Assembly: GCF_035594765.1 (NCBI RefSeq)
Contig: NC_085845.1
Location: forward strand, 58,088,024-58,152,023
Origin: Anolis carolinensis
Taxonomy: Eukaryota
DNA: 64,000 nt
Direction of reading: 5' to 3'
In this document: positions 4,101 through 58,150 of the stretch, piece after piece
Layout of the letters: every line of letters starts with the position of its first letter
Position numbering within the stretch: the first letter of the stretch is position 1
The notes under the pieces: model-generated
What the model was told of the DNA's origin: nothing
The model's input: the letters and a program-made list of their open reading frames with translations, nothing else
Databases searched by the model: none
Made by a program: the position numbers and the translations under genes

Positions 4101-5386
4101 AGCCAGAGCCTGAAAAAGTTACTTTTCGGACTACATTTCCTAAGATCTCCTGCTAACATTTCTACTTATTTCTACTTTTATGTAGCAAAAAAGTTTGTCC
4201 TTGAACATAATCCAAGCAAAAAATGTGAAATTGGAATGAGGCTGTAGGATGTGAACAGACATATAGGACACTAGTTATTGTAAAGTAAACGGTTACATAT
4301 ACATAGCTGTATGAGAAATGAGTGCTTCTTTTAAATAAACACACACATTCAAATAATAGGTTTAATTCAAAGATCCCCAGTTTAAACATACTGCCATTTT
4401 ATATAAAAAGTACCTCTAAAACTAAAAACCAGTGGCAAACATGTGGATTTGAATGTCAGAGTTACTTCTGAAGCCAGGTGACAATAGGTATTAAGATAAA
4501 TGAAAGAAGGATCATAGTTCATGACATATAAAATCTACCTGCTTTCTCATTCTAATAAATACATTTTGCAGATTTTGTCCTGTTTTGAAAAGGATCAAGC
4601 AAAGGATGAGGAAACAAGTGATATTAAAAGATTATTTTTTGTGATTCCAGACAGCCAGTGCAAGTCTGGCCTCTGGCCCTCTGGCCAACAACACTGGCAG
4701 TCAGATTTGGCATAAAGTCACTTCCTGTGTTTCTGAAGCTGAAATGCCATGCCATGCAGGATATACTTTTAAGTACATTTGCACAGGATTGCACTGTTCA
4801 GTAGCATTTGCTCATTAATAAGACTACAATTTGACTTTAATCTAAGATTTAATAATGATCAGCTTTCAAAAATAAAGAGTCCCCTCGAATATTGCATATA
4901 TTTTGATATGCTGATGCAATATATCACATTTACTGGGGACCTGAATCCTGCTTCAAAATTCGGACATTCTTCTGAGTTAGTTTAGCTCAAGGCAAGCTTG
5001 TGTTAAGTGTCTTTCCCATGAGTTAATTCAGATCAGTCCTGGGCAGCACTTAGCCACCACTAGGCTGATTACATCACACAATGAGCTAAGGGGTCAGTGT
5101 AGACAGGGCCTATGTCTAGATCCAGCCCAATAAATCAAATCGAATTTTCCTTCAGATTTGAAATATTTTAAAGTATTAATATGTCAAAAGCAAATATTAT
5201 GTGTCATTAAAATATAGAACAGACTGTATAAATTAATCTACATAAACAGTACTCCATGAGAAAACTCAGGTCCTACAAACTGGGAAACTGCCATGTGACA
5301 AAACTGCAATCAGGGAAAATGCTACTTTATGAAGAAATGGAAATAAGGCTAAGAGCTCAAATGTCTGTCTAGACTCTTTTCAAGTA

Positions 5387-5709
5387 CAGTAGAGTCTCAC
5401 TTATCCAACATAAACGGGCCGGCAGAATGTTGGATAAGCGAATATGTTGGATAATAAGGAGATATTAAGGAGAAGCCTATTAAACATCAAATTAGGTTAT
5501 GATTTTACAAATTAAGCACCAAAACATCATGTTGTACAACAAATTTGACAGAAAAAGTAGTTCAATATGCAGTAATGCTATGTAGTAATTACTGTATTTA
5601 CGAATTTAGCACCAAAATATCACTATGTATTGAAAACATTGACTACAAAAATGCGTTGGATAATCCAGAACGTTGGATAAGCGAGTGTTGGATAAGTGAG
5701 ACTCTACTG
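5387..5709 (+). mobile_element. Tc1/mariner-type MITE, family A copy 1
   Basis: TIRs CAGTAGAGTCTCACTTATCCAAC / GTTGGATAAGTGAGACTCTACTG with TA target duplication. Confidence 0.92.
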
Positions 5710-6322
5710 TACTAAAAATACGTAGTTACAGCTATAACAACAGCAACAACATATTTCTGCATAAACCCACTTCTGTTAAAATATAGTATTTTGCACTATA
5801 AAATATTACGCCGTATACCAAGATTTAATATAGGAAAGAGCCCTATTCAATTATATCAAAAAGTACCTGTGTGCATGTGCATATGTATGCAAGTGTGTGA
5901 ACTGTTCCAAGAAATAGTTACTGAAAGACAATGTACAAATTCTGAAATTAATAAATATATAATAAAAGCAAACATTTCCAACAGCTGTAATTGTGGGCAG
6001 CTGTCTTTAGATTCTTGGTTGGCTCTGCCTTTTGCATTATTCCTCCAACCATGGGAATTATTTTGGCATGGAAAAAAGCTATGTTTCAGTGACAAGAGAA
6101 CGAATGGACATCTGGAATGTAGCCAGTGTCTCAAGTGGTGAAAGATGTCACTTTAGACATAACTTTAAAATCCACACCAAAGTTTGTTCTACATAACAGG
6201 AAATCACAATTCCGTTATCATTTTTAATAATGAGCATTTCCAGATATGAGCAAATGGAATATGTATACGTAAATGATAATTAAGCAAAACATCACACTTT
6301 TAGTTACAGCAAAACAACGCAC

Positions 6323-25414: not shown

Positions 25415-25721
25415 CCTTTATTTGATCTTCTATGTCTTCCAGGACATAGCTTCAAAAATGAAATTTTTTATGAAAACATGTGTCAGAACACTTCTTGAAA
25501 AAGGAAACTATTTTAAACTCAAATTTGATATATGGTCGTAGACTGTATCACAAAGATGTAAGTAATCTTTGGAACAAAGCAACAATAATACCTATACTCC
25601 ATACAGCACATAGTCAGAATTATCTTTGTTATAAACATATGCAGCAAATAGTAAAAATATCATGGAAGATATTAACACAATCAAGGAACATGGAAGGCAC
25701 TGCAGACTAATCCAACCAGAT
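25415..25721. repeat. 307-bp direct repeat, copy 1 (target duplication of the L1 insertion)
   Basis: Matches 29189-29495 with one substitution seen (C25491 vs T29265). Confidence 0.95.
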
Positions 25722-28700
25722 CTTTGTTAACCAACAGTTTACATCAGGTGTTTCTTTATTTTTCCACATTTTGGCAAAGTTCATTCTCGCTGCGGTGGTG
25801 AGATAGTTAAAAAGGATCTCTTTGTTCCTATCTTTTTCTATGTTTAACATCCCCAGGAGGAAATGTTTCGGGTCTAGATCAATTCTAATCTGCAGTATCT
25901 TTTGAATTATTTGGTGAACTTCTTTCCAGTATGACCTTGCCTTTTTACATGTCCACCAACAGTGGAAAAAGGTCCCTACTTCCTCCCCACACTTCCAGCA
26001 TTTATTTGATGTTTTATTGTAAAATTTTGCAATTTTTTGTGGGGTCCAGTACCATCTGTAAAACATTTTTATCCAATTTTCTTTCATATCTGTGGCATAT
26101 GTGAGTTTGAGTCTGATATTCCAACTTTTTTCCCATTCTGCCAATTGTATCGGTTTCCCAATATTTTTTGCCCATTCTGTCATGCACGTTTTAACTGGTT
26201 CTGTTTCTGTTTCCCATTCCAGTAATTTTTTGTAAATTTTGGATATTGTCTTCTTTTCCGATTGCATTATCTTGTCCCAAAAACTCTCTTTTCCTTCAAA
26301 TCCTAATTTTTTATCTTTATTGTAGTAATCTTTTAGTTGTAGGTACTGGAACCAGCCTACATTTTTGAATTCAGCAGTTATTTCTTCCTGGCTTTTCAAC
26401 TTATAGGTGTTGTTTTCCCTAACTACTATATCTTTATACCTTGGCCAGTTCTCCGTACCCAATTCCCTTCTCTGGCACGCCTCTAGCGGGGATATCCATA
26501 ACGGAGTTTTCAAATATAGTCTCTTCTTATATTTGTCCCACATTTTTAGTAAAGATGAACGAATAAAATGATTCCCAAAATTTTTTTCTATTAATTTCTT
26601 ATTATACCATAAATATGCGTGCCACCCTGATCTTAAATCTGCCCCTTCTAGCGCTGTGATTTTTGTTTTTTGAAGAGTAGCCCAATCTTTAACCCACAAT
26701 AGTCCGCAGGCATCATGATAAAGTTGTAGACTTGGGAAGCCTAGCCCCCCCCTGTTTTTCTCATCCATCAAATATATTCTTTTGATTCTTGGTTTCTTCC
26801 CCATCCATATAAATTTGCTCAAATCTTTATTCCATCTTTTAAATCTTAACGAGTTTCTTATAATTGGGATATTCTGGAAGAGAAAAATCATTTTTGGCAA
26901 TATAGTCATTTTTATTGCAGCTACCCTCCCTAGTAATGATAATTTTAGGTGTTTCCACTTTTCTAAATCTTTTTTGATTTCCTTCCATTTGGAGTCGTAA
27001 TTATTTTCTAGGAGCTGGGAGTTTTTAGCAGTTAATATTATTCCCAAGTATTTGATTTTTTTTTTAACTTGGATACCTGTTAGTTCTGTCAATTCTTTTT
27101 GTCTAGTATTCGTCATGTTTTTTGTTAATATCATAGTTTTATCTAAATTGATTTTTAGTCCTGATACTCTCTCAAATTCTTTAAATTTGGCAAGCCAGCA
27201 ATTTATTGTTTTTATTGGTTCTTCTATTACACATATCAAATCGTCGGCGAATGCTCTAATTTTATACTTATGCTTTCTAATACTTGCTCCTTTTAATTGG
27301 GGATCATTTCTAATATTGTTTAGTAACAGTTCTATTGCAAAGATAAATAAGAGAGGGGACAGAGGACAGCCCTGTCTCGTTCCTTTCTGAATTTTAAAGT
27401 TCTTAGATTCCAAAGAGTTTATTTTTATTTTTGCTTCTTCTTGATCGTAAATTTGACTAATCGCGCTAGTAAATTTGTACCCCATGTCCAATTCCTTTAT
27501 CAACAATTTAATCAGGTCCCAATTTAGATTGTCGAAAGCTTTTTCCATGTCTATCGCTAAAAGTGCCAATTCCTCCTTTTTTGTACCCTCATAATATTCA
27601 ATTATGTTTATGATTTCCCTCACGTTATCTCTCATATGTCTTCTGGGCAGTAAACCCGTTTGATCCTCCCCTATCCAATCGGTCAAAAACTCCTTCAATC
27701 TCTCTGCTAGTATATTTGAAAAAAATTTGTAATCCGAATTTAACAGAGATATGGGTCTATAATTCTTCACTAAACTTAAATCTTGCCCTTCCTTTGGGAT
27801 AACTGTTATTGTAGCATAGCGCCATGAATCTGGCACCTTTTTATTATCTAAAATTTCGTTCATGATTTTCTTTAAGAATGGGATCAGTTCTTCCGCGAAC
27901 GTCTTGTAGTATAGCCCATTTAGACCATCAGGGCCTGGTGCCCTGTCACTCTTCATGTTGTTAATTGCTTTTTGGATTTCTATTTCCGTTATTTCCTTAT
28001 TTAGTAATTCCCTCTGTTTTTCTGTTATTTTAGGTAATTTTTGGTTACTAAGAAATTCCCCTACCTTGTCCTTTTTGATGTTGTCTTTGGCGTATAGTTT
28101 ACTATAGAATTTGTTAAAATGGGCCGCTATCTCGGGTTCTGTTGTATATCTCTTCCCATCTGAATTTATTTCTGTTATTGTCCTATCCTTTTTTTTCTTT
28201 CTGATTTGCCAGGCTAACCATTTTCCTGGTTTGTTGGCGTTTTGAAAGTACTGCTGTTTCAGAAATTTTAACTTATTAGCCATCTCTTCTAAATCTATCG
28301 AGGTCAGTTGTTTCTTCAGCATTTCCAATTCCTGTTTTACTTTGCCATTAGTCGGGTCCTGTTTTAGTTTGGTTTCATTTTGTTTAATTTCTTCCTTTAA
28401 ATTAGATCTAATTTTATTCTTAATTTTGTTTTTCTGGGCGTTTTGTTGAATGAAATGTCCGCGCATAAATGCTTTACTCGCGTCCCAAATTATTTGTGGG
28501 GGTACCTCCGCAGTGTTGTTTATTTCGAAGTATTCCTGGAGGATTTTTTATTTCTTAAAATATCTCCTTCTGTTTTAATAAGATTGGCATTTAATCTCCA
28601 GTTATAGTTTCTTTGTTTCTTATTAATTGTGAATTCTATTGGGCAGTGGTCTGAGATGTACCGGGGCAAGATGTTTATTTTTGTCACTTTGAGGCTTAGT

Positions 28701-29188
28701 AGCGAGGTCATCCAGACCATGTCTATTCTCGTCCATGTGTTGTGTCTATTAGAAAAATAAGTGAAGTCCCTTTGTTCACCATGGTGAATCCTCCACACAT
28801 CTTTTAATTCCCAGTCTACTAAAGCCTTCACAAATTTCTTAGGTAATAAGCCTGACCGTGTTTCTACCCTTTTCTCTTTACCTGTGCAACTTCCCTTTTT
28901 ATCTATCTCAGGATCAATTATTCCGTTAAAGTCCCCCAGTATTATTAGATCGTCAAATTCTTGTTCCTCTATTTTCTTTTTTAAATTTTCTAGGAATGAT
29001 GTTTTTGGACCATTCGGGGCATAAATATTGCAGATTAGAATTGTCTGATTGTCTGTCCTGATCTTTGCACCCACCCATCTTCCATCCTCGTCCTTGAATG
29101 CCAATTCCGGGTTCAGCTTCTCATTTATATACAGCACCACCCCCTTTTTTTTTCTCCTTAGCTGTCGATGAGAATACAGCCCCCAGAC
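25722..29188 (-). mobile_element. L1-clade LINE, internal ORF2 fragment (APE endonuclease + RT + Cys-rich domain)
   Basis: EN motifs NIYAPN, LGDFN, RIDMVW, SDHCP; RT motifs YRPISLLN, DMEKAFD, GTRQGCPLSPLLF, FADD; CWKC..HCWWTC; one frameshift at ~28545; no ORF1, 3'UTR or poly-A. Confidence 0.96.
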
Positions 29189-29495
29189 CCTTTATTTGAT
29201 CTTCTATGTCTTCCAGGACATAGCTTCAAAAATGAAATTTTTTATGAAAACATGTGTCAGAACATTTCTTGAAAAAGGAAACTATTTTAAACTCAAATTT
29301 GATATATGGTCGTAGACTGTATCACAAAGATGTAAGTAATCTTTGGAACAAAGCAACAATAATACCTATACTCCATACAGCACATAGTCAGAATTATCTT
29401 TGTTATAAACATATGCAGCAAATAGTAAAAATATCATGGAAGATATTAACACAATCAAGGAACATGGAAGGCACTGCAGACTAATCCAACCAGAT
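29189..29495. repeat. 307-bp direct repeat, copy 2
   Basis: See 25415-25721. Confidence 0.95.
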
Positions 29496-30056
29496 AAGTC
29501 AGCCATAGCAGTAGCACTTGATGAACCAACCTGGACACAGTTTATTATTTGAGAACACAGAAATGCTACACACAGAAGCCATTGAAATTCACAAGTATGT
29601 GGGCAATTTCAACAGAAAGAAGGAAACCATGAAAATGAATAAAATCTGGCTACCAGTATTAAAAAAGCTCTAATATCAGAACAGTAAATAAAGAACAACA
29701 TTCTGAAAACGGAAGAATTCCTAACATGAATCAATCAGGGCCAGCTAACACCTCTAACCAAAGGATTCCCAAAGGCAGGAAGAAGCCAGGCCTTGAAGCT
29801 GGCAAGGCCATTAATGCTAATCAAGGTGATTAATTACAAAATTCACACTGGCCTCCAATAGACAAGAGTTCTTTCTCCCACCCTGGACCTTCCACAGATA
29901 TATACCTCCCTTGCTTAGCTTCCATTATATCTCACAACCTCTGAGGATGCCTGTGTGTGAAACATCAGGAGAGAATCTTTCTGGAACATGGCCATACAGC
30001 CCGGAAAACTCACAACAACCCCAGGGATTCTGGCCATGAAAGCCTTCGACAACACA
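29448..30056 (+). mobile_element. Penelope-like element 3' fragment (GIY-YIG C-terminus + pLTR with hammerhead remnant)
   Basis: Reads KEHGRHCRLIQPDKSAIA... and EAIEIHKYVGNFNRKKETMKMNKIWLPVL; CCT-CTGAGGA...GAAACATC-AGG at 29938-29969. Confidence 0.85.
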
Positions 30057-31413
30057 CTAAATAGTTTCTTCGGGCAAGTTTGGCAGAAGCTTGTCTCTTC
30101 TTAGGGGGCATTGTGATGTTTGTCACTCTAAAGTAAACTGATGTACAATCTATAGTTGAATATCTCTTGGAACCTGTTGTTTTACTTTTCAAAATATACA
30201 CTGCAATTTAAATTTGCATATGGGGAGGGTGGGGGTTAGAGATAGAACAAAACTATATAGGTCATCTAAACACACTGTAAATTAAAAAAAACATTTTAGT
30301 TTACAAAGAAAGAGCAGAGATCAACATTCAAGGGATAAACTACAAATTCATGAACTCGTTACAGGAATGTTCCAAATGTCTATTTGTATGATATAACAGT
30401 AAACTGCATCACCTCCCATTCTATGTCAGACATTAGGACATGTGTATCAGGTCTAAGTTTGTCTTTATTCTGAATTAAGACTGAGAGAAAAATGAATACA
30501 TCTTTATAGTTTTCAGACTCATAGACTTGGGTTCCTTTTGTTTTTAGAATTTTAAATTAATGAAATCAATTATATTTGGTAAATTACATTGTCTTGGGCT
30601 ATAAATATTACAAATGCTTTTTTATATTGCATCACTTATTGTATAGGTGGCCAGAGAATAAGTCCTGTTGTAAAGGACTGTTGTAAAGAGCTGCCCTGAG
30701 TCCCTTCGGGTGAGAAGGGCGGCATATAAATGATGGAAATAAATAAAATAATTAATAAATAAATAAAGGAAATACTGCTAGAGCCACAAAGGGGGAAACT
30801 GACAAATAAAAATGACAAGACCAGTAAGTGAGAAATGCAGCTGTACCTAGTATATCAATCCAAAGACATAGCTGTTAGGCTTGATCGATCCATGAAAAAT
30901 TTGATTCTAAACTCGTTTCAAAACTAGAGGGGGCAGTTTTTCGTTTTTGTTGCTAATAACGAATTTGGCCCCCAAAAATTTTCGAAATTAACGAAAATTC
31001 GTTATTTTCGAAATTAATTCGTTAATGGCGGACGTGCATGCGCGGTGGCCCAAAAACAGCCCGAAGGGGGGGGGACTTAGGGGGCTCTCCCGCCCTCATT
31101 TTTTGAGTGATCTTCTTCAAACTTGGTACAGTGGTAGAACACATTTAACACTGATAGCTCACCAAAATGTGGAACGTTTCCCTTATCCTCTGATTTTTGG
31201 CAAATTTTCATAGCTTTTATAATAAACCTTTTTTTAATAATTGCAGTAATCTGTTCCTGGTTTGAAAGTCTTATTTCCTGTTAAATTGGGTTGTCTTTAC
31301 TGTGAAAGTCATTGTTCTACTTCAGAAACTTTGTTTTTGTGGCTGAAACTTTGTTAAATTGGTGTGTGTGTGATATATATTGTGTATATATATATATATA
31401 TAGAGTCCCTGCT

Positions 31414-31452
<39 letters not shown>

Positions 31453-31453
<1 letters not shown>

Positions 31454-31612
31454 GGTAAAGGTAAAGGTATCCCTTGACGTTAAGTTCAGTCATGTCTGAC
31501 TCTGGGGGTTGGTGCTCATCTCCATTTCTAAGCCCAAGAGCCAGTGTTGTCCATAGACACCTCCAAGGTCATGTGGCCGGCATGACTACATGGAGTGCCA
31601 TTACCTTCCCAG
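31453..31612 (-). mobile_element. Sauria SINE 3' fragment
   Basis: (ACCTTT)n tail; the body matches 49455-49650 in reverse. Confidence 0.85.
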
Positions 31613-31619
31613 AAACACC

Positions 31620-31975
31620 CAGAAAATGGGAATTCCAGACAGGAAACAATCAGGGCCAGCTAATACCTCCCAACAAAGGATTCCCCCAGGTAGGAAGCAG
31701 CCAGGCTTTGAAGCTGCAAGGCTATTCAATGCTAATCAAGGTGACCAATTGCAACATTCACACTTGCCTCCCACAGACAAGAGTTCTTTCTCCCACCCTG
31801 GACCTTCCACAGATATATAAACCCCACTTGCCTAGCTTCGCACAGACGTCAAAACCTCTATGTCTGCCACAGATGTGGGTGAAACGTCAGGAGAGAATGC
31901 TTCTGGCACATGGCCATAGAGCCCGGAATACATACCACAACAGTGTGATCCCGGCCATGAAAGCTTTCCACAACA
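31620..31975 (+). mobile_element. Penelope-like pLTR fragment
   Basis: Homologous to 29700-30056 and 38340-38665. Confidence 0.85.
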
Positions 31976-32819
31976 CAACCACAGTATCCATTCAAGTTCA
32001 TGTAGCGTGGTATGGACTGGAGACCTGTATTGGGGGGAGGGAGGGTGCGAATCTGGGCCCCTGGGAGCAGCCGAGGACGGGCCTGGCCCACACCCCCTCG
32101 CATCCCGGGCCTCTTCCTTCCTCTTCCTTTTGTTATTTAAACTATATATTGTGAAATTATGGTGTGTTTTTTTTCATGCGTGTTCTGTGTTCAAGATAGG
32201 GAGACCAAAGAGGAAAAGCAAGGGAGGGACGGAGGCCCCAACACTTCCGGCTCCCTTGCGAACTCCCCCCTTGTGTGCCTTGGAGGGTGGAGCATGCGCA
32301 CTGGCTCTCCCTTTCTCTATGGCTCTTTTCAGGTCGCTTGGGAACCCGAAGTGCCTCCTCCCTTTGCCTTTGTGTCCAAGAAGGAGAGAAGGACGTTGCA
32401 AGGTTTGCATTGAGGGTGTTTCTCTGGTGGGTTTGGCTTGGAAGGGGGCTCATTAAGGCCCAATTAATTAATGCACTGAGCTGAGGCGAGGCGGCGGCGG
32501 CCATTTCCCCCCTCCGTCTTCCTCCTCCTCCTCGGCCTCCTTCCCCCTCGCCCCCTCCCATTGCCTGAGCCTCCCATTGGCTGAGGGGCAAAAGGAAAGG
32601 AGTTTGGGTGCTTTGCAAAAGCTCTTTTTTCTTAACGAAAAAAACGAAGAAATTAGAAAAAACGGCCTCTCGCGATTCGAAACCGCGATATCCAGACGTG
32701 TGGACAACCAAGGTTCGATATTGCTTCAAAACAATAGAAAATAACGAATCAATAACGGTAAACGGGGAAAACGAATTATTTGAGCAAGCCTAATAGCTGT
32801 AATAGTCTGAAATTTAAGT

Positions 32820-32999
32820 ATGCAAAGAGATTTTGTAGCACGTTTGAGATTGAGGAAAAAAGTTGGTAGCATAAGCTTTTGTAGACTTAAGTCTACTTCC
32901 TCAAATGCACCTGAGGAAGTAAAGTTAAGTCTATGAAAGCTTATGCTACTAAATTCTTTTCTCAGTTAATCTCAACAGTACTACAAAACCACTTTGCAT
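32820..32999. mobile_element. Palindromic Penelope (Neptune-like) derivative with two degenerate hammerhead motifs
   Basis: Imperfect ~90-bp inverted arms centred at ~32906; each arm has (C/T)TGAGGA-stem-(G/A)AAA-GCTT-ATGC. Confidence 0.7.
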
Positions 33000-33484
33000 G
33001 GTTGGTATAACAATATAAAACATTCTTAAACCTACTGCATATTTGGACTAATACTGTGGAGTATCCATGTCACAGCAGAGGAATACACAGCACTCTGGAC
33101 AAAGGCTGAACAGGGAAAGCAATGAAAATAAGGAGTAATTAATTTCCCACAACTGAAGGAATTTCTTTTAGGTCAAAAGGATAAACAGCACTACAAACCC
33201 TATTGTATCCAATTTCCCCCCTCGATGTTGTATAGTCAGGATTGTCTTTGACAATGGAACAAAATAATAATCCTACATGAGACCAGAACAAAGAGAAAAG
33301 GCAAATAAACTGTTTCATCCACAGGCTTACATTAGCCAAGAGGAAATCTTGGAAGGATATTCTCCTACAGACCTATTCTCTCTGGGCAGAGGGGGTTTTC
33401 TCTACCAGTAGTGCTTTTGTTGGCTGCAGCAGGATGGGATTTTTGTTTAAGGCAAAAGGAGTATTAGATCTAATGGATACTAAA

Positions 33485-33590
33485 TATGATAGCCATGTTT
33501 AAATATTTGAAAGGATGTTATATTCAGGAAGGGGCAAGCTTGGATTCTGCTATTCTAAAGACTAGGTCACAGAATAATAGATTCAAGAAA
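33485..33590 (+). mobile_element. Old CR1 fragment
   Basis: DMIAMFKYLKG...GASL.S...TR.Q.NRFK motif of the CR1 ORF2 end. Confidence 0.65.
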
Positions 33591-33654
33591 GAATCTTAAG
33601 GTAACCTGGGATGCAACAGCAGTCATCATCCATTGAAGATGCCTGCTGAGGTAA

Positions 33655-33895
33655 AAATGGCATTTATTGTGTGTTGCTTCAAGGAGTTTCTCACTTACGG
33701 CAACGCTAAGGTGAACCTATCACAGGGGTTTTTGTGACAAGATTTATTCAGAGGGAGGTTTGCCTTTGCCTTCCCCCTTTGAGGATGAGAGGATAACTTG
33801 CCTAATATTATCCAGTGGGTTTCCACAGCTGAGCCAGATCTGAATCATGCTTTTGAAAGTTGTAGTCCAAAACTAAAATCACTACACCATACAGG
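33655..33895 (-). mobile_element. Old tRNA/CORE-type squamate SINE (related copies at ~23960-24050 and ~49000-49190)
   Basis: Similarity among the three copies; tRNA-like head and CORE-like segment. Confidence 0.55.
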
Positions 33896-34884
33896 CTCTC
33901 TCGAAAGTTGTACTACTGCAAGGTAATGACATCAAATATCATGGGGTCTTAACTGTGTAGCTGAAAATATATTGTTCCTGACTTTAGCAGCAAAATGAGT
34001 GGAGAACACAGTTTCAAAAAGCTAAGCTTGTCTAAACATTTGAGATACTAGTATAGAAGACCATAAAGGTAGGGCCCATTGTAAACTTTGTTCCTATAAT
34101 TTACAAGGGCTGTTATCACCTCTGCAACATTATCAACACTGAACAAGTTTATGCTCAGTAAGCATGTTGGGAGAATTTAAAAGATGGAGGAGTGAACTTG
34201 CCTCTTAAAGGGACTTCACAACAGTAATGTCATCTGAGAGGAAGGAGGATCCTAGAAATTATTTTCACAAGTCAGTGCTCAATGTGTTCCAGCAAAACAT
34301 TAGGGACCTTATCAGACAGGGTGAATTAGCATCCTAGGATACTTTTACCCAGTCTAGAGGACAGAGCCCAGCACTGGACATCACACAGCATTGTTTGGGT
34401 TCCAGCAGAGGCCCCACCCCCAACTTGGTGAAAGCCTCACTGGATGCTTTTCCCCCAACACAGGAGGCTTCCCGTGTTGTGCTGGCTTCAATAGAGCCAG
34501 TACGGGGCCTCTCTGCAGAGGGAACTGCAAGCGGTGGAGCGGGAGCTGCACAGTGCAACAGATGTGCCCTGATGTTCCCTCTTTCCTCCCAAATGTCAGG
34601 CGAAGCAGGACGCTTTTATAAGGAGGCTGTAGGTTCAAATCAGTGAGTCAGTACCATCCAGATAGAGAAGACGTATCTCAATCTAGTCTTCCTGCAGAAG
34701 AACAAAGCAATCTGAAGTGTGCTAAATGAAATGTGTATATGAATATGACTGATAAGGGGGTGGGGGAAGAATACAATGATGTTAAATGGCAAAACATTTT
34801 AAAATGTTTTCTAGAGAAATAGTTAATACACAAAATAAGGATTTGCTGTAATGTACAGGATTTTCATTGTTTTCAATTGTGTTA

Positions 34885-35150
34885 TTCCAGAACCACCCGC
34901 AATGAGTGAACATCTGCAAAGTAGGGATGCTATATTTATTTTAATATTTATACATTATTTTAGTAGTTATACACTATTTTAAGTCTTTATCAACCAATCG
35001 GGTGTTGATAAACCTCCTTCTCCTCCTGTTGCTCCTTTTTCTCTCCCTTTGGCTTCTTCTTCCTCCCTTCCTTAGGCTGTAAATTGTAATTTTTTATGAT
35101 TTATAATAGTCTTTTAGAGTTTATTGAAAAACCGCAAAACAGCGAATCTC
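34885..35150 (-). mobile_element. Degenerate copy of the Tigger-like MITE at 51568-51909
   Basis: Reverse complement of the 51600-51880 body. Confidence 0.75.
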
Positions 35151-35277
35151 CATTACATTTCAGAGCTGGTAATGAAAACTGAACTTCTAAAAGCAAGCGG
35201 TCTCATGATATCAGATAAATGATTGCATATTAACATTTCAATGTTCTATTAATTTAGCAGAGTTGCTATATTTAATG

Positions 35278-35412
35278 CAGTGGTTACCAGACTTTTATCC
35301 TCCAGGGATTTAGGACTTCAGCTCCAAGAACCCCAGTCAACCTGGCAGATGGTCAAAGATTCCGGAAGCTGAAGTCAAAAACTTCTGGAGCACTGAAGTT
35401 TAAGAATCACTG
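35278..35412. mobile_element. Old hAT (Charlie-like) MITE
   Basis: CAGTGGTT...AATCACTG termini, internally palindromic. Confidence 0.6.
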
Positions 35413-36503
35413 TTTCAATCACACAACAACTGAAATATATAGTTGCTTTTTCAGTTACCTGATATTGCTTGAGTTACACACTGAAGAGTTTTTTTAACCT
35501 ATAATCTTTGGAAGACAGAACTCCTTTTCCCATTTTGAATGTATGGGATAGATTTCTTTTTTAAAAAAACCCTATATTTATTTAGAGCCAGGAAACTACT
35601 TTCTCTCAGTAGCTTTTACTATTCTACAGACAATAGTAACTACTGTCCAGAGTTGAGATGACCTTTGCACCACCACCTACTTTGTTTCTTTTTGCAATGC
35701 TATCCATCCTTTTTGAAATACAATTCTACTCATTTATTGGTTTTTTCCCCCCTCCTAACATGTTTTTTTTTCTACTAGTGGAGAAGAGAAGGGGAGTATT
35801 ACTGTACAAGCAAAAATAGGTTTTATCTACTTCAGGAAGTACAATCAAGGACAATTATATGAAATGTCACATGTTGCTGATGACTGCAAGATCCAGAGGG
35901 TGAGGGAGGAATGTGAACTTTACTAGTATATTATTTGTAAAGCTGTTGTCAAATGACCGATAATGAAGTAAATCAATTCCAGAAAGTATCAGATTCTACT
36001 ATAGTTCCATGTTCCATACAATTAAAAATCATTAAAGAGAAAACTATGATTTATATATAAACTACTATTTGGAATCACTGACCAACATATAGAAACAACT
36101 ACAATAGTAACAGTTATGAACTGCTTGTTATTTCTACACCAGGAACTGTGTTTACTGGCATACAAATTATTATTATTTTTTGTTCTTTTGGTCAAAGATT
36201 TACATAATGAAATTAAAATGAGACACACATATCCCTATTCACTAACCACATCCCTAGATCCTTCAGATCCTAATTATGCTTCCCATTTGGCAGAAAGGAA
36301 CATAGGCATCTGTTTCTGAACTGGAAATCCCTAAATCACTGCACATATTATGGAACTGAGCTAATGCAAGAATTGTTATTCAAGATAAAAAATCTACCTG
36401 TTTAAAAGAGGGATCTTATATGATATCATATAGCATATGCTTTCAGTTGCTCAAGACATAAAATGGTTATTAAATATGATAATATACTACTCACTGGCTT
36501 ATA

Positions 36504-36823
36504 CAGTAGAGTCTCACTTATCCAACATAAAAGGGCCAGCAGAATGTTGGATAAGCGAATATGTTGGATAATGAGGCATTAAGGAAAAGCCTATTAAACA
36601 TCAAATTAGGTTATGATTTTACAAATGAAGCACCAAAACATCATGTTAGACAACAAATTTGGCAGAAAAAGTAGTTCTATATGCAGTAATGCTATGTAGT
36701 AATTACTGTATTTATGAATTTAGCACCAAAATATCACGATATATTGAAAATATTGACTACAAAAATGCATTGGATAATCCAGAATGTTGGATAAGCGAGT
36801 GTTGGATAAGTGAGACTCTACTG
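36504..36823 (+). mobile_element. MITE family A copy 3
   Basis: TIRs and TA TSD. Confidence 0.92.
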
Positions 36824-56869: not shown

Positions 56870-58150
56870 CCTGAGATTTGCAGCTTAATGAAGGCACCAG
56901 CCCTCTTTGACAGAGAAGGCGAAAGACCTGGAAAAACTACAACTCCATATAATCATGCCATGGATTTGCAGCAAGCCAAGGACCAACCCTATTTCACAGA
57001 GAAGGCGAAAGACCTGTTAAAACTATAGCTCCATGTAATTAAGCCATGGGTTTGCAGCATGCTAAGGCACCAACCCTCTTTGGCAGAGAAGCAGAAAGAC
57101 CTGTTAAAACTACAACTCCATATTTTTAAGCCATGGATTTGCAAAGAGCCTAAACCTGTTAAAACTACAAATCCATATTATTAAGCCATAGATTTTTAGT
57201 TTGCTGAGGACCAAGCTTCTTTGGTAGAGAAGGCGAAAGACCTGTTTAAACTACAGTAGAGTCTCACTTATCCAACACTTGCTTATCCAACATTCTGGAT
57301 TATCCAACGCATTTTTGTAGTCAATGTTTTCAATATATCGTGATATTTTGGTGCTAAATTCATCAATACAGTAATTACTACATAGCATTACTGCGTATAG
57401 AACCACTTTTTCTGCCAAATTTGTTGTCTAACATGATGTTTTGGTGCTTCATTTGTAAAATCATAACCTAATTTGATGTTTAATAGGCTTTTCCTTAATG
57501 CCTCCTTATTATCCAACATATTCGCTTATCCAACATTCTGCCGGCCCGTTTATGTTGGATAAGTGAGACTCTGCTGTACATGTAATTAAGCCATGGGTTT
57601 CCAGCATGCTAAGGCACCAACCCTCTTTGGCAGAGAAGCCAAAAAAACCTGTTAAAACTACAACTTCATCTTATTAAACCATGGATTTGCAGCAAGCCTA
57701 AACCTGTTTGACAAAGATGGCTAAAATACCTGTTAAAACTACAACTCCATATTATTAAGCCATGGATTTGTAGTTTGCTGGGGACCAACCCCCTTTGGCA
57801 GAAAAGCCGAAAGACCTGTTAAAACTACAACTCCATGTAATTATGTCATGGATTTGTAGTTTGCTGGGGACCAACCCTCTTTGGCAAAGAAGCTCAAAGA
57901 CTTGTTAAAACTACAATTCCATGTCATTAAGCCATGGATTTGTAGTTTGCTGGGGACCAACCCCCTTTGGCAAAGAAGCCAAAAGACTTGTTAAAACTAC
58001 AACTCCATGTAATTAAGCCATGGATTTGTAGTTCGCTGGGGACCAACTCCTTTTGGCAGAGAAGGCTGGTCGAACTACATTATCCACATTATGAAGCCAT
58101 GCCTATCCTCAAGCCTTCTTGGACAGAGAAGCTGGCCAAAACGAGTAACT
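56870..58150. repeat. Minisatellite, ~86-bp unit, interrupted by a MITE
   Basis: Unit aaagacctgttaaaactacaactccatgtaattaagccatggatttgtagtttgctggggaccaaccctctttggcagagaagcc; period 86 between 57796, 57882 and 57968. Confidence 0.9.
57254..57576 (-). mobile_element. MITE family A copy 5 (inverted), inserted in the minisatellite
   Basis: TIRs and TA TSD; near-identical to the reverse complement of 36504-36823. Confidence 0.92.

What the first reader, a model, noticed from the sequence alone, without database searches (positions are those of the whole stretch)
25415..29495. L1 ORF2 fragment with no poly-A, bracketed by a 307-bp target duplication (LTR-mimicking structure)
Seen: 3.47 kb of L1 ORF2 that starts inside the endonuclease domain and stops before the ORF2 end (no 3'UTR, no poly-A). 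It is flanked by two 307-bp direct repeats with one visible mismatch. The repeat is host target, not an LTR: its last ~48 bp are the start of a Penelope GIY-YIG fragment (KEHGRHCRLIQPD) that continues seamlessly (KSAIA...) after copy 2 at 29496. Both junctions continue the L1 reading frame plausibly (..KI|W at the 3' side, N-K-G at the 5' side), which suggests microhomology. Known: ordinary L1 TPRT gives short TSDs and a poly-A tail. Inference: internally primed or endonuclease-independent capture of L1 RNA during break repair, with widely staggered nicks; a very recent event, possibly polymorphic.
Basis: partly seen in the sequence, partly recalled or inferred. Interest (0 to 1): 0.75.

Follow-up and report, generated by a model that had tools for sequence, protein, structure and literature searches.

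The report
Tailless lizard L1, 307-bp target duplication
In an intron of an anole lizard gene, a 3.5-kb middle piece of an L1 jumping gene sits between two copies of 307 bases of host DNA, joined by 6- and 4-base overlaps; it is likely a natural case of the rare tailless, long-duplication L1 insertions already seen in repair-deficient cultured cells, though no independent reads confirmed the structure.

Summary
The assembled structure is as described. A 307-bp direct repeat (25415-25721, 29189-29495; one mismatch) brackets 3,467 bp of minus-strand L1 ORF2, which lacks 51 N-terminal and about 41 C-terminal residues, the 3'UTR and poly-A. The locus is an intron of Anolis SH3RF1. Contigs of four other runs show the L1 family still matching 6 bases into the left repeat and 4 into the right, so both junction microhomologies are real. 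The repeat is host DNA at low depth and cuts through an older Penelope-type fragment: not an LTR. No listed contig bridged either junction, so the structure is not independently confirmed. 'Very recent' is not supported: the insert has about 7 own substitutions (3 at conserved RT residues) and 2 frameshifts. Both letters of the single mismatch occur in other individuals. Best reading (0.5): an L1 reverse-transcription intermediate, primed inside the RNA and closed 307 bp away, matching 13 of 63 inserts tabulated in NER-deficient human cells. Main rival (0.3): DNA-templated copying from a dead L1. A rare outcome of known processes at one locus.

The parts
25415..25721 (+). Repeat copy R1, 307 bp of host intron DNA (C at 25491)
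29189..29495 (+). Repeat copy R2, 307 bp (T at 29265); continues into the right flank
25722..29188 (-). L1 ORF2 internal fragment, 3,467 bp: part of the endonuclease, RT, C-terminal Cys/His region; both ends missing, no 3'UTR or poly-A
25716..25721 (-). 3' junction microhomology, 6 bases (ATCTGG in L1 sense) shared by target and L1 family; an end mismatch inside the six is not excluded
   Evidence: table 8: X1 record 1 and X15 record 9 fit to 25716 and leave 9 letters unfitted; table 3 from_end 45 at 25760 in 4 of 4 runs
29189..29192 (-). 5' junction microhomology, 4 bases (AAGG in L1 sense)
   Evidence: table 8: X15 record 14 fits to 29192 and leaves 40 letters unfitted (seen in one listed contig); K-G-L-G in P0014
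28538..28543 (-). One-base frameshift in an A-run, between the endonuclease and RT frames
   Evidence: table 4 (family contigs differ in 4 of 4 runs; in X2 44.5 of 71.2 depth)
29145..29153 (-). One-base frameshift in a 9-A run, near the 5' end of the insert
   Evidence: table 4
25675..25721 (+). First about 47 bases of the Penelope-type fragment, duplicated as the end of R1 and cut by the L1
   Evidence: start inferred from X9 record 32 leaving at 29448
29449..30056 (+). Older, 5'-truncated Penelope-type element (GIY-YIG C-terminal part and 3' end), running unbroken across the end of R2
   Evidence: (family consensus runs across 29495/29496); the name Penelope is recalled from the GVY..YIG motif of the hits, no call printed it
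22947..49674 (-). Host context: 26.7-kb intron after the first coding exon of SH3RF1; the L1 lies in the gene's sense direction

Best explanation
An internal L1 ORF2 fragment lies between two copies of 307 bp of host intron with 6- and 4-base junction overlaps, and it likely arose in one aberrant L1 retrotransposition event in a germ-line cell. Inferred steps: (1) a nick or break left a plus-strand 3' end at the right end of R (site AGAT/AA); (2) its last six bases annealed inside the L1 RNA, about 125 nt before the ORF2 stop, instead of to the A-tail; (3) reverse transcription ran 3.47 kb and stopped in the endonuclease region; (4) the cDNA end joined the host 307 bp to the left through a 4-base overlap, and fill-in from a distant second nick or replication from the other end duplicated R. 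Afterwards the insert likely aged in place, and the one mismatch came from a point mutation or from conversion by a homologous chromosome. It has no promoter, ORF1, intact ORF2 or tail, so it is predicted to be dead; its main expected fate is loss by recombination between the two repeats.
For: Shown: repeat and insert limits. Microhomology 6 and 4 bases; chance 0.002 and 0.02, jointly 4e-5 if both are perfect. R is not part of the L1: its contigs have depth about 12 against 30-60 for L1 contigs in X1, X2, X15, and go on for 135 letters unlike L1; its first 260 bp share no 14-mer with the rest of the window. Polarity fits a host 3' end priming on sense RNA (sequence; this fits but does not discriminate). 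T/AA follows the primer end, chance 0.02-0.07. The donor is a young, low-copy family: 62 differences in 6,188 bases over 23 listed pieces, 1.0%; L1 has about 806 copies, 170 full-length, in this species (PMC5389967 table 1), so a random DNA template would seldom fall wholly inside one (inference). Precedent: 13 of 63 tabulated de novo inserts in NER-deficient human cells were tailless at atypical sites, all 13 with duplications of 275-3,685 bp; 0 of 17 in complemented cells (PMC5223499). One mismatch in 2 x 307 bp fits ageing in place (expected 0.9-1.6).
Against: No listed contig bridges either junction (158,157 pieces and 149 joints were not shown). The insert looks decayed (5 of 7 own substitutions change the residue, three at positions where 12 of 12, 12 of 12 and 10 of 12 relatives share the family residue; two frameshifts), which a fresh copy of an active element would not. 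Both letters of the mismatch occur in other individuals (X15 T, X1 and X2 C, X9 both): if these are empty alleles, the two copies carry two alleles of a SNP, which a single-duplex nick-and-fill model does not give without later conversion. AGAT/A is far from the human consensus TTTT/A; the lizard enzyme's preference was not tested. Nothing seen (no spliced junction, no untemplated bases) proves an RNA template.
Confidence: 0.5

Rival explanations
1. DNA-templated 'cycle of templated insertion': a replication or repair strand copied R, switched by 6-base microhomology to a dead L1 copy elsewhere, copied 3.47 kb and returned 307 bp behind its exit by 4-base microhomology (MMBIR/SDSA type), possibly onto the homologous chromosome.
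For: Both ends are internal with microhomology and no tail. Decay of the insert would be inherited from the donor. Both letters of the mismatch exist in other individuals, about 1:1 in X9 (52.9 of 105.2), as expected if R1 and R2 came from two homologues. The class is defined in cancer genomes as strings that return and re-replicate a host segment; 1,467 cycles in PCAWG (PMC7025897, passages); germ-line insertion with duplication at the site also reported (PMC5120786, passages).
Against: Low prior that a random template lies wholly inside a young L1 (inference). No donor seen: at 5 sites none of the laid contigs of 4 runs carried the window's letter, though contigs drop rare variants. Zero new differences between the repeats is not significant against ageing in place (P 0.2-0.4).
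Confidence: 0.3
2. Assembly artefact: the two repeats are two haplotypes, or a mis-join through an L1.
For: No independent contig listed across a junction; three runs hold one 429-letter contig entering R from a non-L1 side; the mismatch letters match alleles seen in other individuals; both frameshifts are in homopolymers.
Against: Assemblers join on long overlaps, not on 4-6 bases, and two independent non-random microhomologies to one continuous L1 piece would be needed. The window has no N, and the SH3RF1 exons match Anolis proteins with no frameshift (partly circular for P0121, not for A. sagrei P0123).
Confidence: 0.1
3. Two steps: an ordinary tailed L1 insertion with an even longer duplication, then a microhomology-mediated deletion that removed the L1 3' end, the tail and the adjoining part of the duplication.
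For: A 4-base overlap is usual at L1 5' junctions (recalled); large deletions in anole LINEs are reported as common (PMC3787681, passages); T-rich sites exist a few tens of bases right of R2.
Against: Needs two rare events; in the cell data a tailless end and a long duplication came together in one step.
Confidence: 0.07
4. The 307-bp unit is an element terminus (LTR or pseudo-LTR) that travels with this L1 or with Penelope.
For: Only the superficial repeat-RT-repeat layout.
Against: No TG..CA ends, no further short duplication outside the repeats, no primer-site or polypurine-tract-like stretch by eye; L1 family contigs leave at both junctions and R has low depth; only the last 47 of 307 bases are Penelope-type.
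Confidence: 0.02

Closest known systems
Tailless, atypical-site L1 inserts with 275-3,685-bp target duplications in NER-deficient human cells (Servant et al., PMC5223499; results section 17 read whole with tables 1-4, discussion passages; supplements not read)
   Same: 5'-truncated L1 of about 2.6-3.7 kb, no poly-A, non-consensus site, duplication of hundreds of bases; authors note such copies may be lost by recombination like solo LTRs.
   Different: Here a natural intronic locus in a lizard assembly, not an engineered element; the repair status of the cell and the template are unknown; junction overlaps are measured here.
Internal priming (IP) of L1/Alu (Srikanta et al. 2009, not read; as described in PMC5402677, passages)
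   Same: No tail, flanking duplication, no consensus endonuclease site, proposed at staggered breaks.
   Different: Duplication of 307 bp against the usual 5-30 bp for L1 (PMC5223499); the TSD lengths of the IP set were not seen.
Non-classical, endonuclease-independent L1 insertions, NCLI (Sen et al., PMC1920257, passages) and class 2 TSIPs (PMC5110952, passages)
   Same: 3' truncation, no tail, non-consensus site, microhomology at the junctions.
   Different: Both are defined by the absence of a target duplication and often carry deletions; NCLI screening rejected any element with a TSD.
Cycles of templated insertions (Li et al., PMC7025897, passages); small tandem duplications at L1 junctions read as large TSDs (bioRxiv 10.1101/2024.12.14.628481, passages; supplements closed)
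   Same: Inserted segment from elsewhere, host segment re-replicated, 2-7-base microhomology.
   Different: Described in somatic human genomes; here the single template is a young L1 piece and a DNA donor was not found.
HERV-K (HML-2) loci with 111-450-bp flanking duplications (Kahyo et al., PMC5488345; abstract, first part and passages)
   Same: Natural germ-line insertions with duplications of this size, 0-3 mismatches, and the same doubt whether empty alleles are ancestral or made by recombination between the copies.
   Different: Integrase-made LTR elements, not a doubly truncated LINE.

Membership tests
L1-clade LINE ORF2 | APE endonuclease followed by RT, with similarity to L1 ORF2 | tested here: met
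Canonical TPRT insertion | Intact 3' end with poly-A | tested here: not met
   ends about 41 codons before the stop
Canonical TPRT insertion | TSD of 5-30 bp | tested here: not met
   307 bp
Canonical TPRT insertion | TTTT/A-type nick site | tested here: not met
   AGAT/AA at the priming end; human consensus used, lizard preference not tested
Internally primed L1 insertion | 3'-truncated, tailless, flanked by a target duplication | tested here: met
Internally primed L1 insertion | Target 3' end complementary to internal L1 sequence | tested here: met
   6 bases, table 8 (at least 5 of 6)
Internally primed L1 insertion | RNA template copied by L1 RT | not testable with these tools
   needs the whole genome to exclude a DNA donor; none held
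Internally primed L1 insertion | Empty site with one copy of the target | tested here: inconclusive
   unbranched 429-letter contigs in X1, X2, X15 favour it; depth 1.2-2.6 times the right flank does not
NCLI / class 2 TSIP | No target duplication of any length | tested here: not met
   307-bp duplication; definition
Cycle of templated insertion | Insert returns behind its exit and re-replicates a host segment | tested here: met
Cycle of templated insertion | Template is an identifiable genomic DNA locus | not testable with these tools
   no genome; contigs drop rare variants
LTR retrotransposon / TRIM | TG..CA ends, outer short TSD, primer site and polypurine tract | tested here: not met
   by inspection of the ends
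LTR retrotransposon / TRIM | Terminal repeat recurs with the element | tested here: not met
   R low depth, L1 contigs leave at both junctions; no other copy in window; genome not searched

The most novel reading that the evidence does not exclude
The two 'target duplication' copies are the two alleles of a segregating SNP, brought together in one germ-line event in which a repair strand left one homologue, copied 3.5 kb of an already dead L1 from DNA and landed on the other homologue. LINE fragments would then spread without reverse transcription, gain host-derived pseudo-LTRs, and mark hidden crossovers between homologues.
Probability: 0.12. Interest if true: 0.55.

Novelty: new member of a known kind. 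Interest (0 to 1): 0.3.

Why it matters
It is a likely natural example, in a reptile, of an insertion type known mainly from repair-deficient cultured cells. Pipelines that demand a tail and a short TSD, or that reject any TSD, would miss or misfile it, and an LTR finder could call it an LTR element. Because the locus has both a SNP between its repeats and an insert with its own mutations, it is a small, cheap test case for whether such structures are copied from RNA or from DNA. It is one intronic locus with no predicted function; the repeat pair only makes it prone to clean excision.

Tried and rejected
No whole genome is held, so the genome-wide search for R and for a donor could not be run. 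A 25-base L1 pattern found 0 matches in metagenome contigs. Run search: 18 of 24 listed runs hold part of the left flank, best share 0.93, so probably none is the assembled individual; 4 were laid. The single read-laying run included the high-copy Penelope-type flank, which filled the joints and loose-end tables (149 joints, 2,399 loose ends, 158,157 pieces, 299 letter rows not shown); no junction-spanning contig appears in the listed rows, which proves nothing about absence. The 135 unfitted letters of the R contigs were not printed; that they are the left flank is inferred, because 135 bases left of R1 end at 25280 in the tail of a repeat. Using repeat identity against insert decay to date the event was inconclusive (P 0.2-0.4). 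Insert orientation does not separate RNA from DNA templates. Earlier scan notes: nothing near this place or like R. No tRNA genes in the window. Literature searches listed no paper on this locus or on a natural reptile L1 of this anatomy; the library is limited to open papers, and none of these searches named the gene. Rejected: LTR or element terminus; NCLI membership; canonical TPRT; the N-K-G reading of the 5' junction.

Full report
Observation. The window holds a 307-bp direct repeat at 25415-25721 (R1) and 29189-29495 (R2), with one mismatch (25491 C, 29265 T) and no similarity beyond either end. Between them are 3,467 bp of minus-strand L1 ORF2: RVT_1 at E 4e-32 with weak endonuclease hits, and Anolis carolinensis L1 proteins as best relatives (94%, 86%, 77%). 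The piece starts at K52/G53 of P0014 and ends at the K-I-W motif about 41 residues before the C-terminus of P0002 and P0003, so 3'UTR and tail are absent. It has two one-base frameshifts in A-runs. The host gene is SH3RF1 on the minus strand; the locus lies in the intron between the exons at 50055-49675 and 22946-22671.

The repeat is host target. The last 47 or so bases of R belong to an element whose relatives carry an RT and a GVY..YIG motif (Penelope-type; name recalled). The protein match stops at 25721 after R1 but runs on through 29454-29664 after R2. The other 260 bases share no 14-mer with the rest of the window. The ends are not TG..CA and there is no outer short duplication.

Other individuals. 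No genome is held. I searched runs with the left flank and laid contigs of four, from four studies, on 25675-30300. L1 family contigs of depth 56-58 (X1 record 1, X15 record 9) fit to 25716, six bases inside R1, then leave; the aligned end is the same in all four runs. X15 record 14 fits to 29192, four bases inside R2, then leaves. So the junction overlaps are 6 bases (at least 5 of 6; an end mismatch cannot be excluded from the output) and 4 bases (one listed contig, consistent with K-G in P0014). By chance these have probabilities of 0.002 and 0.02. In X1, X2 and X15 a single 429-letter contig of depth about 12 fits 29189-29482 and goes on for 135 letters that are not L1, most likely the left flank (inferred). 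An unbranched contig favours individuals without the L1-R junction. Against that: contigs drop rare paths, most rows were not shown, and R is 1.2, 1.7, 1.9 and 2.6 times as deep as the right-flank bin, where a two-copy R predicts about 1.6. I put about two to one on these individuals being non-carriers. No listed contig bridges either junction, so the structure rests on the assembly alone.

The mismatch. At 29265 X15 shows T, X1 and X2 show C, and X9 shows both at about 1:1. If these are empty chromosomes, R1 and R2 carry two alleles of a segregating SNP. That needs later gene conversion, a consensus mosaic in a heterozygote, an inter-homologue origin, or empty alleles remade by recombination between the repeats. 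If instead the insertion is common and the contigs collapsed R1 and R2, the mismatch is just a mutation after insertion.

Age. Of the 26 L1 positions listed (40 of 339 rows were shown in all), 7 differ from at least 80% of family depth in all four runs; 5 of the 7 change the residue, against 3 of the other 19 (Fisher p=0.014). Three hit RT positions where 12 of 12 (Q), 12 of 12 (F) and 10 of 12 (I) relatives share the family residue. With the two frameshifts this is at least 0.14-0.26% unselected change. Two repeats of the same age would differ at 0.9-1.6 sites, so one mismatch fits ageing in place, and zero new ones is not excluded. Either way 'very recent copy of an active element' is not supported. 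General sequencing error is an unlikely cause, as the SH3RF1 exons show no frameshift against three Anolis proteins (partly circular).

Mechanism. Shown: limits, overlaps, host nature of R, decay. Inferred: a plus-strand 3' end at the right end of R (AGAT/AA) paired with six bases inside the L1 RNA, was extended for 3.47 kb, and was joined 307 bp to the left by four bases, with R filled in twice. I give this 0.5, mainly because the template is a young, low-copy L1 (1.0% from listed family pieces; 806 copies, 170 full-length in the species, PMC5389967), which favours capture by its own RT, and because the same anatomy has been recovered experimentally. DNA-templated copying from a dead L1 gets 0.3, since it explains the decay and possibly the SNP directly. 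Assembly artefact 0.1, tailed insertion with later deletion 0.07, element terminus 0.02.

Comparison. In PMC5223499 (section 17 read whole; discussion passages), my count from tables 1, 3 and 4 is 13 of 63 inserts in NER-deficient cells without a tail, all with duplications of 275-3,685 bp, and 0 of 17 in complemented cells; duplications over 100 bp never exceeded 10% in HeLa cells; an endonuclease-dead L1 gave no events. The paper's text names AM7 where the table shows AM.6 as tailless; its supplements were not read. Internal priming is described second-hand in PMC5402677 (passages). NCLI (PMC1920257, passages) and class 2 TSIPs (PMC5110952, passages) lack duplications by definition, so this is not a member. 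Cycles of templated insertions (PMC7025897, passages) have the same topology. A preprint on L1-caused rearrangements treats small tandem duplications as large TSDs made by break-induced replication and includes non-polyadenylated inserts (10.1101/2024.12.14.628481, passages; supplements closed). Natural duplications of 111-450 bp flank some HERV-K loci (PMC5488345). Anole studies report most non-reference LINE insertions at low frequency but many truncated reference L1s fixed (PMC5389967, PMC3787681, passages), so neither carrier state is surprising. Searches listed no report of this locus or of a natural reptile case.

Verdict. A well-formed, probably real, single-locus example of a rare but known outcome: a tailless L1 fragment with a long target duplication. 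New member of a known kind; interest 0.3. The open point worth a cheap test is whether the insert was copied from RNA or DNA and whether the two repeats came from two homologues.

Noticed in passing
window 29261-29448, run X9 record 32: A 457-letter contig fits R up to 29448, with a 2-base insertion at 29287, then goes on for 267 letters unlike the Penelope-type piece: possibly a haplotype that lacks that element.
   Followed up: no
window 24424-25368: A 945-bp imperfect palindrome (nested arms 76-100% complementary), like a foldback or MITE element, ends 46 bases left of R1; it could form a secondary structure near the left breakpoint.
   Followed up: no
window 5377-5717, 19239-19582, 36501-36829, 45997-46355, 57245-57585: Five copies of an about 330-350-bp element with 27-33-bp terminal inverted repeats, 80-96% alike; the last interrupts a tandem array at 56875-58066.
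   Followed up: no
window 12124-14111 and 44750-45961 (-): Two 3' fragments of another RT-encoding LINE (CR1-like by recall), 90% alike, one with frames of 447 and 231 codons.
   Followed up: no
window 29604-30056, 31614-31977, 38230-38663: Three Penelope-type 3' fragments, 81-86% alike; the family reaches very high depth in all four runs.
   Followed up: partly
P0242, P0245, P0027 (protein hits): Annotated Anolis proteins (A-kinase anchoring protein 7 isoform, phenylethanolamine N-methyltransferase, GOT1B isoform) contain Penelope-type or L1 ORF2 sequence, probably mis-annotated or exonised repeats.
   Followed up: no
window 16257-16364 (-): A 36-codon SH3RF1 exon matches the A. sagrei protein fully but is skipped in the two A. 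carolinensis proteins used.
   Followed up: no
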